Assembly (NCBI GenBank): GCA_963514005.1
Contig: OY740790.1
Span: forward strand, 12,276,001 to 12,340,000
Length of the DNA: 64,000 nt
Source: Raja brachyura
Taxonomy: Eukaryota
Direction of reading: 5' to 3'
A program made the position numbers. Positions 3,001 to 24,000 of this stretch are shown in pieces; position 1 is the stretch's first letter, and each line of letters begins with the position of its first letter.

Positions 3001-6000
3001 CTGAACCATGGCGGGAGGGAGATGCGACCCAGCCGCTACAATTACTCTTGCGTTGCTGCTCGCCACAGGTTTCTCATTTATTTCACAGCACTAATAATCT
3101 GCACTTTCCTCTGATTCGTTTTGTGTTGAATATCAGGCACCAAAGTGTCAATTTTAGTATCTGTTTGTTTAAAGAAATAAAGAGGTGAACATTTAAAGGG
3201 TTCAACTTGTAAGCTTTAAAAAATAATAATAATATTGCCTTTGTGTTGTTTGTAAACTGCAGGATCCGCCTTCAATTTGGAGTTAAACCCGTCTGGAAAC
3301 GTGTGGGCTCGTATCGGGGACTCGCTGGTGTTGAACTGTCTGGCGAAGAGCTGCTCGTCTCCGACCTTCACGTGGAGAATCGGCACCGATAACCCCCTGG
3401 GCGGAACAGTCACAACTCGGGGCTCGGGGTCCACATTCACCATCTCCGCGGCTACCCCGCAGAACGAGCACAAGTACACTTGTTCCGCAAGATGCGGCGC
3501 AGAAGAAAAACGAAAATATGTCAACCTCAATATATTCTGTAAGTATTAACCCATCTCCTGACTGTAAACGTGTTGCAACTTTGTCCGTCCAGGTAAAAGT
3601 TACACAAATACAGGGAACGCTCAACTATTCGTGCAGACTCCACGAAGAGAGAAATAGAATCTCGACCCGAAACCTCACCCGTCCCTTCTCTCTCTCTCTC
3701 AGAGATGCCGCCTGTCCCGCTGAGTTAATCCAGCTTCTTGTGTCTATCTTCGGTTTCAACCGGCATCTGCAGTTCCTTCCTAACACTGAAAGGTCATTGT
3801 TCTGGGGAGATGTCACTCGTTGTAGCGCAGCGTCCGGGGTGAGCAAAGGTCTCTAACCGACAAGAATCACCTGTCTTCTCTCCACCAATACTGCCTGCCC
3901 GATGAGGATTTCCGGCACACGCTGTTTTATTCAGGGCCTTGCAACGGTTGCCTTTATTTTGGTCTTCAACAAATATTTTAGTTAACAGATTCATGAATGT
4001 TTTCTGACACAAAAGTGGTCCTTTTGCAGATTGGAAGGAGAGTTTAGTAACAAATCATTACTGATAGGAGCGGAATTCGCCCATTCGGCCCATCGAGTCT
4101 ATTCCGCCATTCAATCATGGCTGATCCATCTCTCCCTACTAACCCCATTCTCCTGCCTTCTCCCCATAACCTCTGACACCCGTACTGATCAAGAATCTGC
4201 CTTAAATATATCCATTGCTTTGGCCTCCACAGCCTTCGGTGGCAATGAATTCCGCAGATTCACCACCCTCTGACTAAATCGATGAGCACCTTGGTCGCTG
4301 TACATTCCACCCTGAATCCCTGTTTGATTCCTGAATCCATATGTCGTTGCAGCTCTGTCCGACACACTCATCGTGGAGACAGTGGGCAGTCTGGAAGTTG
4401 GCCAGAGAGGCTCTGTGAGATGTATGGTCCCCAAAGTCTACCCCGCTCATGTGGAGGTGGAGTGGCTGAAAGGGACAACGGTGCTGAAGACCGACAGCTT
4501 CCACAACTACACAGAGGAAGAAACGGCGATGAACCTCACCTACGAACTGACGCCCGAATTGCGAGACTCGGGACAAGAGCTGACATGCCGAGTGCAATTA
4601 CTCACGGAGAACCAACCACGCAAGGCCGAGGGGACTCTAACGTTACAGGTTCACTGTAAGTATGGATACAGTGATATAACATTGAGAAAGGAGTCGCTGT
4701 TATAGATGTTGTCTGGACAATGGTTTAAGTCGCCCGCCTTTAATGTACTGAATGATCCCATCTCCTTCTACAGATGCTCCCACAGGGATTGACATTACTG
4801 CGGAGCCCTCTGCCACAGTGAGAGAGGGTCAGGATGTTCGGCTAACCTGTGCTGCAGACAGCAGCCCCGCTGCCAGGATTGTGTGGAGCAAGTTATCCGC
4901 CGGCAACTGGTCAGTCGTGGCCGAGGACCGAGCGATTCTGCACCTGTCACCGGCCCTGTTCGGGCACACGGGAATGTACCGTTGTGAAGCCAGCAATAAA
5001 CTGGGGACAATCACCAAGGGGGTGGAATTCCATGTTCAAGGTGCGTGGGTTTCACGATTGTAATTTTACTATCACTGTTATAGGAAAGACGTGGTCAAGC
5101 TGGAAAGGGTGCAAAGATTTACCAGGATGTCGCCAGGGCTAGAGGGTCTCAGCTAGAGGGAGAGGTTGGGCAGGCTGGGACTCTATTCCTTGCAGCGCAG
5201 ATGAGGAGTGATCTTATAGAGGTGTATAAATCATGAGAGGAATAGATCAGGTGGATGCAGAGTCTTTTGCCTAGAGTGGGTGCATTGATGACCAGGCATA
5301 GGTTTATGGTGAAGGGGAAAAGATTTAATAGGAATCTGAGGGGTAACTTTTTCACACAAAGGGTGGTGGGTGTATGGAACAAGCTGCTAGAGGAGGTAGT
5401 TGAGGTTGTGACTATCCCAACATTTGAGAAACAGTTAGAGAGGTACATGGATTGGAGGGACATGGACTAAACACGGGCAGGCGGGACTAGTGTAGCTGGA
5501 ACATGATGGCTGGTGTGGGCAAGTTGCGCTGAAGGACCTGTTTCCACACTGTATCACTTTATCACTATGACTATGTTTCTTTGCATGGATTTGGCTAAAC
5601 TTTTTGCAATTCATTAATTTCTCACACCTCTGGTCCCAGGTATTCCCAGGGACACCACTCTCTCCATCACCCCCTCTGCTGTGAAGGAAGGAGACGGGGT
5701 CACATTCAGCTGCACAACCCAGTCCAACCCCCCTGCCCAGCTTGTACTGAGGAGGCAGTCATCGAGCGGATGGAGCGAGCTAGACTCTGAGAATGGGACA
5801 TTGACAATCCGTGCTGTCCAGCCAGCTGATGCAGGGCTGTATCAATGTGAGGCCATTAATGCTCTGGGGATGCAAATAAGCGACAACAAACTCCAGGTTC
5901 AAGGTTTGTATGGAAATTAGTGAGAAATTTACAGGAACTGACTGTGAAAAGTATTTTCACTTGAATTATTACGAGGGGTGGAAAAAATGATTTGGATTTA

Positions 6001-21000: not shown

Positions 21001-24000
21001 ACACTTATTGCAAGCATTTATAGAACCACATTTAGGGCACTCACAGTTGAGTAAACATGTGTTCAGTGCTATTCAGAGCTCAGAGACAAGTGACCCTCTG
21101 GCTTCCTCCATCTTGCAGAGACTGAGTGAGGCACACCACTTCCTGGTTTTATAGTCCCTCCCCCTCCCTCCAGCAGGGGCAGCAGAGAGAATGGCGAATT
21201 ATTATTATTTTTTTAAATATATCTCTGATTTTTCATCTATGGGAAATATCCTCTGGTCCAGGAAGGCGGAGGGGGGCTCTGAGCGAGCCGGCCAGAAATG
21301 AGGGCCGTAGGTGGCGACGTTCTCTCGGCAATCACACCACAGTGAGCCAAAAGCGGTCAAGATCAGACTTTTAGTATTATAGATATGCTGATTTACAACA
21401 ACAAAAAGACACAAAGTTCTGGAGTAAATCAGTGTGTCAGGTAGCATCCGTGCAGAACATAGATGGGTAAAGTTTCAAGTTGGGATCCTTCTTCAGACTG
21501 GTGTTGGTTTAGTGATAAATATTGACCAGGATGCTGGAATAAACTGGGCAGAACTCTACCACTTTAAATTTTAAATTGTGTTACAGAATCTTTTATGTAA
21601 ACTAGAGGGGGCTTTAATTTAACAACTTATGTGAAAGTGTAATTAACTGCTGCCATCATTTGGCACAGGACTGGAGAGACTTTCTAGCTTTTTGTGCCTA
21701 ATTCCTTCAACAGAAACTTGAGCTCACAAGTCATGGTGATTATTATAAATTGCAATAATCTATGATTGTAAAAATCATTAATAGACATCATGATATGAAT
21801 AGATCGGGTAGATGCACAGAGTCTCTTGCCCAGAGTAGGCAAATCAAGGACCAGTGAACATAAGTTTAATGTGTAGGGGAAAAGACTTAATTGGAATCAG
21901 ATGGGTAACGTTTTTACATCAAGGGTGGTGGGTGTATGGAACAAGCTGCTAGAGGAGGCAGTTGCGGCTGGGACTAACCGAACATTTAAGAAACAGTCAG
22001 ACGGGTACATGGATAGGACAGGATTGGAGGGATATGGACCAAACACGGGCAGGCGGGACTGGTGTAGATGGGGCATGATGGCTGGTGTGGGCAAGTTGCG
22101 CTGAAGGACCTGTTTCCACACTGTATCACTTTATCACTATGACTATGTTTCTTTGCATGGATTTGGCTAAACTTTTTGCAATTCATTAATTTCTCACGCC
22201 TCTGGTCTCAGGTATTCCCAGGGACACCACTCTCTCCATCACCCCCTCTGCTGTGAAGGAAGGAGACGGGGTCACATTCAGCTGCACAACCCTGTCCAAC
22301 CCCCCTGCCCAGCTTGTACTGGGGAGGCAGTCATCGAGCGGATGGACCGAGCTAGACTCTGAGAATGGGACATTGACAATCCGTGCTGTCCAGCCAGCTG
22401 ATGCAGGGCTGTATCAATGTGAGGCCATTAATGCTCTGGGGAAGCAGATCAACAGCAACAAACTCCAGGTTCAAGGTTTGTATGGAAATTAATGAGAGAT
22501 TTACAGGAACTGAATGTGAAAAGTATTTTCACTTGAATTATTACGAGGGGGGGAAAGAATGATTTGGATTCATGGGGGAGCATTTATACTATTCTGGACT
22601 ACGCAAACACTTTATCACCAATAAAGTGCCCTTGACTTGTGCAGCAATGAAATGTGGTGCAGCACATTCTCACAAAGTGCAATGTGAGGAAAACCAATTA
22701 GTTGTAATGATGGCGTAGAATAAATTGTATATGCTGATTTACAACAACATAAAGACACAAAGTTCTTGATTAACTCAGTGGGTCAGGTAACATCCCTGGA
22801 GAACATGGACGGGTAACGTTTCAAGTTGGGATCCTTCTTCAGACTGGTGTTGGTTTAGTGATAAATATTGACCAGGATGCTAGAATGAACTGGGCAGAAC
22901 TCTGCCACTTTAAATTTTTAATTGTGTTACAGAATCTTTTATGTCAACTAGAGGGGGTTTTAATTTAACAACTTATGCGACAGTATAACTAGCTGCTGCC
23001 ATCCTTTGGCACAGGACTGGAGAGACTTTCTAGCTTTTTGTGCCTGATTCCTTGAACAGAAACTTGAGCTCACAAGTCATGGTGATTATTATAAATTGCA
23101 ATCATCTATGATTGTAACAATCATTAATAGACATCATGAGATGAATAGATCTGGTAGATGCACAGTCTCTTGCCCAGAGTAGGTGAATCAAGGACAAGAG
23201 AACATGGGTTCAATGTGTAGGGGAAAAGACTTAATAGGAAACTAAGGGGTAACCTTTTTACACCAAGGGCGGTGGGTGTATGGAACAAGCTGCTAGAGGA
23301 GGCAGTTGAGGCTGGGACTAACCAAACATTGGAGAAACAGTAGATCGGGTAGAGTCAATAGACATGTATTTTCCCCCTCATCACCAAACCTGACTGTTTG
23401 GGCTCATCCTTCCAAACTGGTTGATGAAGGAGAAAAGGTCACCATTGACTGCACCATTCATAATATCCACTTAGCCAATTTCACCCGGAAGAAACTAGTG
23501 AACAACAGTGAAAATGTGCTGTCCTTCAGTAACAACAACTTTACAATCCTTGAAAAATACACCAAGTGACGCTGGGCTTTATAAGGTCAAAGCGATGAAT
23601 AAACTTGGGAAACAGGATTTGTGGAAATACAAGAAATTGGTAAGTTTAAGTATAGATTGAGAATTGTTGTGTGGAGAATGTATTTTACTGATATTGTTCT
23701 TTAAAAATATTCTTCTGTCTCTTTGCAGAAAAAATACCTGATAGAGCAACAACTACTGAGATTCCTCCGGGAGTTCTGGAAACAGTATGCACAGGAGCCG
23801 CAATTGGATCAGCAGGACTGATATTTTCTGCTCTGTATTATGCCTTTCGCAGAAGCAATTTGACAAATTCTTACAGAATAGCGGGAGAGATCCTGTGAAG
23901 TGAAAACAAAGGACCAAAGGAATGGACATTCACACTTCTAGCACCGATCAATCTCTGGGACTGTGCTGCTAGGGGCGGGAAGTTGGGAAATGACGGAGCT

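What the first reader, a model, noticed from the sequence alone, without database searches (positions are those of the whole stretch)
5640..22475. Nine near-identical intact D7-like Ig exons give a 12-domain VCAM with an extensible stalk
Seen: nine 264-nt phase 1-1 exons, none with a stop, frameshift or broken GT/AG, while the introns around them carry many indels. About 13 codons vary in amino acid and about 7 silently (hand count). Known: human VCAM1 has seven domains and one D7. Inference: the integrin-binding head sits on a much longer spacer whose length could change by exon skipping or by unequal crossover between alleles. Adjacent near-identical Ig domains are unusual because they favour domain-swapped misfolding.
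Basis: partly seen in the sequence, partly recalled or inferred. Interest (0 to 1): 0.8.

Follow-up and report, generated by a model that had tools for sequence, protein, structure and literature searches.

The report
Nine-copy Ig exon array in skate VCAM1
A skate cell-adhesion gene of the VCAM1 type carries nine almost identical copies of one immunoglobulin-domain exon in a row, which should give the protein an unusually long stalk, and related skates carry different numbers of the same copy.

Summary
Nine 264-nt exons (5640-22475) each have AG/GT, phase 1-1 and no stop.

They lie in a 1.3-2.4 kb head-to-tail genomic unit inside an intact VCAM1-like gene (3008-23898). The gene has a signal exon, D1, D2, D3, nine R exons and a TM/tail exon, 3450 coding nt in frame. 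The best relatives are skate proteins, so I do not take the window for human.

- A decayed thirteenth Ig exon (about 23378-23639) sits before the TM exon.
- A degenerate second paralog starts at 44.9 kb.

The array is not private to this genome. Gene models show 14 copies in Amblyraja, 13 in Rhinoraja, 2 in Leucoraja, 1 in sawfish and 3-5 in sharks. Copies are more alike within a species than between species.

Amino-acid-changing sites vary less than intron sites (p=1.5e-4). Intactness alone is not significant.

Whether all nine exons reach one mRNA, and whether copy number varies between individuals, stays untested. This is a new variant of a known kind, of moderate interest.

The parts
3008..3068 (+). 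Exon 1 of gene A: start codon and signal peptide, ends in phase 1
   Evidence: The ATG and the GT donor were read directly. tblastn to Amblyraja VCAM1-like residues 1-24 gives 87.5% identity.
3263..3538 (+). D1 exon, 276 nt, phase 1-1; the putative integrin-binding domain
   Evidence: Pfam I-set, E 2.7e-11. The best PDB hits are VCAM-1 D1 entries 1ij9, 1vsc and 1vca, E 1.2e-17. Splice sites were read.
4353..4655 (+). D2 exon, 303 nt, phase 1-1
   Evidence: Pfam C1-set scores 30.8 bits. ICAM1_3_5_D2 scores 26.4 bits, just under its 27.5 cut-off. Splice sites were read.
4774..5040 (+). D3 exon, 267 nt, phase 1-1
   Evidence: Pfam Ig_3, E 1.1e-12. AG/GT flanks confirmed. 93% identical to Amblyraja D3.
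5640..5903 (+). R1, the first repeated Ig exon and the most divergent copy (94.7-96.6% nt identity to the others)
7893..8156 (+). R2. It lacks the N-G-T sequon that the other 8 copies keep (Asn to Lys at residue 51)
10253..10516 (+). R3
12379..12642 (+). R4. The intron after it (1063 nt) has the same ~1 kb deletion as the intron after R9
13706..13969 (+). R5, closest to the consensus; used as the query for searches and for the fold
15375..15638 (+). R6
17725..17988 (+). R7
20093..20356 (+). R8, 99.6% nt identical to R7
22212..22475 (+). R9, the last repeated exon. Its phase-1 end fits the phase-1 start of the TM exon
5230..5439 (+). Interspersed-repeat copy in the intron before R1. It is homologous to 23133-23344 after R9, and the generic intron is a fusion across this element
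   Evidence: I0 170-379 matches I9 658-869. Further copies lie elsewhere in the window, at about 55.0-55.3 kb and, more weakly, at about 31.6 kb.
23133..23344 (+). The matching interspersed-repeat copy in the intron after R9
6372..6715 (+). 33-nt minisatellite, 10.5 copies. Further arrays in other introns: 8692-9070, 11011-11194, 16130-16541, 18502-18913, 20847-21028
23378..23639 (+). Decayed Ig exon, homologous to the membrane-proximal domain of shark VCAM1. Its frame changes twice and it has no AG at the expected acceptor. Its GTAAGT donor is kept
   Evidence: 47% identity to white-shark residues 741-821, with stops. In one search, none of the 8 open AG-GT combinations of 90 nt or more spans the whole domain.
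23729..23898 (+). Last exon: short linker, transmembrane segment, 16-residue tail and TGA stop (23896-23898); phase-1 acceptor
   Evidence: Read directly. 70% identical to Amblyraja VCAM1-like residues 455-511.

Best explanation
This is a real tandem array of one whole-domain exon inside the VCAM1-like gene of a skate.

How it arose (inferred). Unequal crossing-over between two copies of an interspersed repeat, one in the intron before and one in the intron after a single D7-type exon, made the first duplicate with a hybrid intron. Further unequal exchanges between the 2.0-2.4 kb units, which also carry a 33-nt minisatellite, then raised the number to nine and keep the copies alike.

What it encodes (shown up to the reading frame, inferred beyond). 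Every copy is 264 nt and phase 1-1, so any number of copies reads in frame. With all nine included, the product is a 1150-residue type I membrane protein. It has a D1-D2-D3 head of VCAM1 type, a stalk of nine Ig domains that are 93-99% identical between neighbours, a transmembrane segment and a short tail.

Constraint (shown). The coding parts are under purifying selection.

Not shown. That the long stalk holds the integrin-binding head further from the membrane, and that its length changes by unequal crossover over evolutionary time and perhaps by exon skipping.
For: Array and exon anatomy.

Copies are distinct: the longest exact shared stretch is 439 nt, and the closest units are 98.64% identical with 32 mismatches and 3 gap runs.

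Hybrid intron: the generic intron matches the post-R9 intron over its 5' part and the pre-R1 intron over its last 410 nt. The two overlap in a roughly 210-nt element present in both. The introns after R4 and R9 share one ~1 kb deletion.

Constraint: exons have 21 of 264 variable columns against 175 of 1007 in the introns (p=8e-5). Amino-acid-changing sites have 14 of 197 (p=1.5e-4). Between species the R domain is as conserved as D1-D3: 87-93% to Amblyraja, against 81% for D1, 85% for D2 and 93% for D3.

Same array in relatives: 14 R domains in an Amblyraja radiata model and 13 in a Rhinoraja longicauda model, of which 12 are identical. There are 2 in each of the two genes fused in the Leucoraja erinacea model (the second copy of its first gene is partial), 1 in Pristis and 3 or 5 in five shark species.

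Concerted or independent growth: mean identity within a species is 95.1, 94.8 and 99.5%, against 85-89% between species. 11 of 87 columns are fixed differences. All skate copies form one clade (SH-aLRT 95, quick tree).

Fold: a single R exon is predicted as an Ig domain with pLDDT 95.7. Its nearest solved structure is CD22 d6-d7, also a stalk.

VCAM1 identity.
Against: I could reach no transcript, read or population data, so inclusion of all nine exons and the exact copy number rest on the assembly and on gene models of other species. Those models are predictions, and three of them (the Leucoraja and Rhinoraja models and the Amblyraja 14-copy model) are visibly fused or truncated.

Intactness alone is weak evidence:
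- 2.4 indels were expected in 264 nt, so the probability of none is 0.09.
- The probability of no stop among 21 changes is 0.49.
- The ratio of amino-acid-changing to silent variation is 0.65, not significantly below 1 (p=0.43).

The lower exon divergence could partly reflect gene conversion centred on the exons. Silent sites (7 of 64) do not differ significantly from introns.
Confidence: 0.7

Rival explanations
1. The array is real, but only one or a few R exons enter any one mRNA, by skipping or mutually exclusive choice. The protein would then have four to six domains, as in sawfish or little skate, and the array would offer variants rather than length.
For: Tandemly duplicated exons of equal length and phase are a common substrate of alternative splicing (recalled general knowledge). 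Two white-shark predicted isoforms differ by exactly 176 residues, which is two R domains. An Amblyraja paralog model has about 1.7 R domains and the Pristis model has one. The 13 variable residues include loss of the N-glycan sequon in R2.
Against: 264 nt is a multiple of three, so joint inclusion never breaks the frame. The frame therefore enforces no exclusivity. All nine exons share the same donor context, and eight of them also share the same acceptor context (R5's upstream flank differs), so nothing marks a preferred copy. The variants differ at only 13 of 87 residues, and each copy differs from the consensus by 1 to 6 residues. Gene models in Amblyraja and Rhinoraja string 14 and 13 copies together.
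Confidence: 0.2
2. The array is a young, neutral by-product of unequal crossing-over. The copies are intact only because they are recent, and extra copies have no selected function.
For: Intactness is not significant by itself (P of no indel 0.09, P of no stop 0.49). The ratio of changing to silent variation is 0.65, not significantly below 1. In Rhinoraja 12 of 13 copies are identical in protein, which points to very recent growth. Copy number ranges from 2 to 14 among skates.
Against: Amino-acid-changing sites vary 2.4 times less than intron sites (p=1.5e-4). Neighbouring decayed pieces show what relaxed constraint looks like at this locus: the thirteenth Ig exon and the R-like exons of gene B carry frameshifts. 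Large arrays are kept in three skate genera.
Confidence: 0.15
3. Assembly artefact: the true locus has fewer (or more) copies, and the nine arise from mis-joined or duplicated reads.
For: Tandem arrays of 2 kb units are error-prone in assemblies. I could not see reads. The little skate models show only 2 copies per gene, which could mean either real difference or collapse there.
Against: Every unit differs from every other by substitutions, indels and minisatellite length. The closest pair has 32 mismatches and 3 gap runs, and the longest exact shared stretch is 439 nt. The units show a nested history with a shared deletion in two introns. Independent assemblies of two other skates hold 13 and 14 copies.
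Confidence: 0.05

Closest known systems
Tetrapod VCAM1 (seven Ig domains in mouse and human; PMC2193422, one passage of the introduction seen)
   Same: D1 has the VCAM-1 fold signature, with an aligned Asp-Pro-Leu loop and two Cys pairs. There is one Ig domain per phase-1 exon, a single TM exon and a short tail. The repeated domain is of the same type as the last domain of turtle VCAM1.
   Different: There is no D1-D3 / D4-D6 internal duplication. Instead one D7-type exon is repeated nine times at 95-99.6% nt identity. A further membrane-proximal domain, present in sharks, is decayed here.
VCAM1-like genes of other elasmobranchs (RefSeq models: Amblyraja radiata 'hemicentin-2-like' and 'VCAM1-like', Rhinoraja longicauda 'VCAM1b', Leucoraja erinacea, five sharks, three stingrays, Pristis, Narcine)
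   Same: The head is the same (D1-D3 81-93% identical to Amblyraja). The repeated domain is the same, and it joins the TM exon directly in batoids.
   Different: Copy number differs: 9 here against 14, 13, 2, 1 and 3-5. Stingrays repeat the D3-R pair rather than R alone. Sharks keep the extra last domain.
LPA kringle IV type 2 array (PMC6314250, abstract seen in the search listing: a 5.6 kb copy-number variation that generates more than 40 protein isoforms)
   Same: A kilobase-scale genomic unit that encodes one whole protein domain is repeated head to tail, with near-identical copies. Protein length is set by copy number.
   Different: The domain type differs (kringle, two exons per unit) and the protein is secreted. 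Polymorphism within a species is shown for LPA and is untested here.
Titin tandem Ig domains and the rule of divergent neighbours (PMC4660218, abstract and passages seen)
   Same: A chain of I-set-like Ig domains. The R domain hits titin Ig domains in PDB.
   Different: The natural titin neighbours I27 and I28 share 24% identity, and identical neighbours give long-lived misfolds in vitro. Neighbours here share 93-99%, and 100% in most of the Rhinoraja array. This is an extracellular, disulfide-bonded domain that probably carries an N-glycan.

Membership tests
VCAM1 (vascular cell adhesion protein 1) | N-terminal Ig domain of VCAM-1 D1 type, with an acidic C-D loop motif (human I-D-S-P-L; the motif's role is recalled) and a second disulfide | tested here: met
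   In one search the best three PDB sequences are VCAM-1 D1D2, E 1.2e-17. The window's T-D-N-P-L aligns to the human I-D-S-P-L. The C-x4-C and C-x3-C pairs both align.
VCAM1 (vascular cell adhesion protein 1) | Second domain of the ICAM/VCAM D2 type | tested here: inconclusive
   In one search Pfam ICAM1_3_5_D2 scores 26.4 bits, under its 27.5 cut-off. C1-set scores 30.8 bits, over its 21 cut-off.
VCAM1 (vascular cell adhesion protein 1) | One Ig domain per exon, all in phase 1, then one exon for the TM segment and a short tail | tested here: met
   No transmembrane predictor was run. The hydrophobic stretch is read directly and is 70% identical to the TM/tail of a named VCAM1-like protein.
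VCAM1 (vascular cell adhesion protein 1) | Closest named relatives outside the lineage are VCAM1 | tested here: met
   In one search the Amblyraja relative finds 12 further elasmobranch proteins named VCAM1 or VCAM1-like and a turtle VCAM1 (E 5e-106). The next named hits are hemicentin-like, peroxidasin and Siglec-10, at E 1e-50 or weaker.
VCAM1 (vascular cell adhesion protein 1) | Mammalian seven-domain plan with D4-D6 as a copy of D1-D3 | tested here: not met
   In one search only one D1, one D2 and one D3 exon lie in gene A. This plan is not universal in tetrapods either: the turtle isoform has six domains.
VCAM1 (vascular cell adhesion protein 1) | Conserved gene neighbourhood, and binding of alpha4 integrins | not testable with these tools
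   The window holds only the two VCAM1-like genes and transposon remains. There is no binding assay.
Copy-number-variable whole-domain exon arrays (LPA KIV-2 type) | Head-to-tail genomic unit with a frame-neutral whole-domain coding part, and near-identical copies | tested here: met
Copy-number-variable whole-domain exon arrays (LPA KIV-2 type) | Copy number polymorphic between individuals, with all copies expressed in one protein | not testable with these tools
   Only differences between species were seen.
Mutually exclusive exon clusters (Dscam type) | Joint inclusion prevented by frame or by a dedicated mechanism; variants differ in function | tested here: not met
   264 nt keeps the frame for any number of copies. 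74 of 87 residues are invariant among the copies. Competing RNA structures were not searched for.

The most novel reading that the evidence does not exclude
Skates use this array as an adjustable molecular ruler. Stalk length of the integrin-binding adhesion receptor (from 2 to at least 14 identical Ig domains) would be polymorphic between individuals through unequal crossover, and adjustable between tissues through frame-neutral exon skipping. The domain itself would have evolved to fold correctly next to 93-100% identical neighbours, making it a natural exception to the rule that adjacent Ig domains must diverge.
Probability: 0.25. Interest if true: 0.7.

Novelty: new variant of a known kind. 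Interest (0 to 1): 0.5.

Why it matters
If all copies are expressed, skate VCAM1 would carry 12 or more Ig domains. Adding 88 residues (about 4 nm, recalled) per extra domain would roughly double the reach of the integrin-binding head compared with the seven-domain mammalian protein.

It would also be a vertebrate cell-surface protein in which up to 13 neighbouring Ig domains are 93-100% identical. In-vitro work on titin predicts that such neighbours give long-lived misfolds (PMC4660218). That makes it a ready natural test case for how tandem identical domains fold in the secretory pathway.

It is also a clean worked example of exon amplification through a transposon-derived repeat, with concerted evolution across at least four skate genera.

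For annotation, it explains why such genes are named 'hemicentin-2-like' and why neighbouring paralogs get fused in automatic models.

My six full-text searches, three of which asked about VCAM1 in these fishes, found no paper that describes it. Subscription journals and supplements were not searchable.

Tried and rejected
- **Names of further hits.** The listing of cluster members, meant to name ten further representative hits (possible chimaera, teleost and tetrapod VCAM1), was switched off. Chimaera stays unchecked.
- **Careful tree.** The careful maximum-likelihood tree did not finish in 288 s. The quick tree is what I cite, and with 88 columns many forks are open.
- **Rabbit VCAM-1.** A search for an eight-domain rabbit VCAM-1 that I half remembered gave nothing usable, so I make no claim about it.
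- **Literature.** Papers on the evolution of diapedesis and of the IgSF mention VCAM1 in cartilaginous fish only as present or absent, or not at all.
- **Second paralog.** The translation showed the exon itself is open.
- **Considered and rejected.** The ORFs through the 33-nt minisatellites (up to 219 residues) are not taken as coding, because long frames lie open on both strands of the repeat. The thirteenth Ig exon is not used as a full domain.
- **Not done.**
  - No search or fold of a joined, spliced protein; every search and the fold used single exons or database proteins.
  - No test for gene conversion tracts.
  - No search for competing RNA structures.
  - No cross-species ratio of changing to silent substitutions, because no nucleotide sequence of the other skates was on hand.

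
Full report
**Scope and rules.** The window has no N. Its closest relatives are skate proteins, so I do not take it for human. I left out the joined, spliced protein: it was never assembled, searched or folded, and only its length was summed from coordinates.

**1. The observation.** The repeat finder reports nine copies of a unit with start-to-start spacing of 2253, 2360, 2126, 1327, 1669, 2350, 2368 and 2119 nt. Stop-to-stop ORFs show nine near-identical 100-104-residue frames on the + strand. 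After trimming to splice sites, all nine exons are 264 nt. 21 of 264 columns vary: 14 in 13 codons change the residue and 7 are silent. Exon pairs are 94.7-99.6% identical in DNA. Neighbouring domains are 93.1-98.9% identical in protein.

**2. Is it an artefact?** Every unit is distinguishable.
- The longest exact stretch shared by two units is 439 nt.
- The closest of the 36 unit pairs (units 6 and 7) differ by 32 mismatches and 3 gap runs over 2.35 kb. Units 2, 6 and 7 form a young group at 98.3-98.6%, and the next closest pairs are about 96%.
- Introns differ in a 33-nt minisatellite of 5.5 to 12.5 copies.

I could not see reads, so an error of a copy or so cannot be excluded. A wholesale artefact is unlikely, the more so as independent assemblies of other skates hold 13 and 14 copies (section 5).

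**3. The gene.**
- *Head and tail.* Upstream lie a signal exon (3008-3068), D1 (3263-3538), D2 (4353-4655) and D3 (4774-5040). All Ig exons are phase 1-1. Downstream lies a phase-1 exon (23729-23898) with a hydrophobic segment, a 16-residue tail and the stop. It is 70% identical to the TM/tail of an Amblyraja VCAM1-like protein. The 14 exons add to 3450 nt, which is 1150 codons in frame.
- *VCAM1 identity.* D1's best solved relatives are the three VCAM-1 D1D2 entries (E 1.2e-17). The window's T-D-N-P-L aligns to the human I-D-S-P-L loop, and both Cys pairs are conserved. That this loop binds alpha4 integrins is recalled, not tested.
- *The repeated domain ('R').* R is a generic I-set/Ig_3 domain by Pfam and PDB. 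Folded alone with an 18-row alignment, it gives an Ig sandwich at pLDDT 95.7. Its nearest solved structure is CD22 d6-d7. The 13 variable residues are mostly polar exchanges such as G/R, S/T, A/D and Q/E (Q/L and M/K are the exceptions), and none touches the two Cys. R2 alone has lost the N-G-T sequon.

**4.
- *A decayed thirteenth Ig exon.* Between R9 and the TM exon lies an exon at about 23378-23639. It matches the membrane-proximal domain of shark VCAM1 (47% identity to white-shark residues 741-821), but its frame changes twice, giving three in-frame stops. No AG stands at the expected acceptor, while its GTAAGT donor survives. Of all AG-GT pairs in 23250-23728, 8 give an open frame-neutral exon of 90 nt or more, and each covers only about half a domain. 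The same test recovers R9 as a control. R9 can splice straight to the TM exon, as in all batoid models. So 'twelve domains' stands, by loss of a thirteenth.
- *A second VCAM1-like gene.* It starts at 44.9 kb. Its exon 1, D1 and D2 are intact. D3 is cut after 60 nt, one R-like exon is frameshifted and another is partial, and the last-domain relic is truncated.

**5. Relatives.** A single R exon finds the following:
- an Amblyraja radiata model named 'hemicentin-2-like' (1554 residues);
- a Leucoraja erinacea 'VCAM1-like' model (1067 residues, visibly two neighbouring genes fused);
- a second Amblyraja gene (511 residues).

An HMM of the nine copies counts the R domains in each model:
- 14 in the Amblyraja model;
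- 2 in each of the two genes fused in the Leucoraja model, the second copy of its first gene being partial;
- 1 in Pristis;
- 3 in four sharks, and 5 or 3 in two white-shark isoforms;
- in three stingrays, repeats of the D3-R pair instead.

A Rhinoraja longicauda model (2100 residues, again two genes fused) has 13 R, of which 12 are identical, and then 2 more in its second gene. The white-shark isoforms differ by exactly 176 residues, which is two R domains. All of these are automatic models, and I could not check their transcript support.

**6. 'D7-like'?** Against a six-domain turtle VCAM1 isoform, four domains (the third to the sixth) match the R profile, which scores 69.4 bits on the last domain. 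The other three score 63.0, 62.4 and 43.7. In a quick tree of 80 domains:
- R domains of all elasmobranchs group with the fourth and last turtle domains (SH-aLRT 81);
- D3-type domains form another clade (96);
- the shark last domain forms a third (100).

R is thus of the D7 type. The positional counterpart of D7 in sharks is a different domain, the one that decayed here.

**7. How the array arose (inferred from anatomy).** The generic intron equals the post-R9 intron over its 5' part and the pre-R1 intron over its last 410 nt. The two overlap in a roughly 210-nt element that both flanking introns carry (5230-5439 and 23133-23344). Other copies lie elsewhere in the window. This is the signature of a first unequal crossover between two dispersed repeats. 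The introns after R4 and after R9 share one ~1 kb deletion, so a block ending in the last unit was later copied inward.

Within species, R copies are 95.1% (window), 94.8% (Amblyraja) and 99.5% (Rhinoraja) identical on average, but only 85-89% between species. 11 of 87 columns are fixed differences. Either the arrays grew independently or they are kept alike by ongoing exchange.

**8. Selection.**
- Exons vary at 21 of 264 columns and introns at 175 of 1007 (p=8e-5).
- Amino-acid-changing sites vary at 14 of 197 (p=1.5e-4 against introns). Silent sites vary at 7 of 64, not different from introns.
- The ratio is 0.65 and is not significantly below 1 (p=0.43).
- With 10 indel events in 1087 aligned intron columns, 2.4 would be expected in 264 nt (P of none 0.09). 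The probability of no stop among 21 changes is 0.49.

The deficit of amino-acid changes, the conservation of R between species at the level of D1-D3, and the decay of the unused neighbours together support constraint.

**9. Literature.** Three full-text searches on VCAM1 in cartilaginous fish, sharks, skates and elasmobranchs, and passages read in three papers, found no description of these arrays. Subscription journals and supplements were not searchable. The statement that identical neighbouring Ig domains give long-lived misfolds, while natural neighbours (24% identity) do not, is in PMC4660218 (abstract and passages). The seven-domain mouse form and its three-domain splice form are in PMC2193422 (one passage). 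The LPA comparison rests on the abstract of PMC6314250.

**10. Verdict.**
- The feature is a new variant of a known kind: VCAM1 with a lineage-specific, concertedly evolving array of its D7-type exon.
- Expression of all copies, polymorphism and any functional effect of stalk length remain open.

Noticed in passing
window 44921-61026: A second VCAM1-like paralog lies downstream. Exon 1 (44921-44992), D1 (to 45450, 2 residues different from gene A) and D2 (51894-52229) are open. The D2 region is 97.8% identical to gene A, against about 86% for the promoter/D1 region. D3 breaks off at 52381. The R-like exon at 57118-57611 is frameshifted, the one at 59310-59473 is partial, and the last-domain relic at 60812-61026 is truncated by an unrelated repeat. 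No TM exon lies within the window. It is probably a pseudogene or a truncated gene.
   Followed up: partly
window 6372-6715, 8692-9070, 11011-11194, 16130-16541, 18502-18913, 20847-21028: A 33-nt minisatellite sits in six of the array's introns, with 5.5 to 12.5 copies. It leaves long open frames on both strands (up to 219 residues) that are not genes. It may favour unequal exchange.
   Followed up: partly
window 32431-36096: Remains of a LINE-type retrotransposon: an endonuclease piece (Pfam Exo_endo_phos_2) and reverse transcriptase (RVT_1, E 3.9e-26), with broken frames around them. Related tail sequences recur across the window, including inside the array's introns.
   Followed up: partly
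window 29917-30556: A GC-rich, Pro/Gly/Ala-rich low-complexity stretch is open on both strands. A nearby peptide-like motif also appears after the truncated relic of gene B (about 61030-61120) and inside the fused Leucoraja model. This suggests a dispersed repeat that misleads gene predictors.
   Followed up: no
window 55891-56682: A tandem repeat of 59 nt (13 copies; higher-order period 246) lies inside gene B's degenerate region.
   Followed up: no
P0002, P0176, P0001 (database proteins): Automatic models of three skates are faulty at this locus. Two fuse neighbouring paralogs through the decayed exon. One is named hemicentin-2-like and lacks a TM end.
   Followed up: partly
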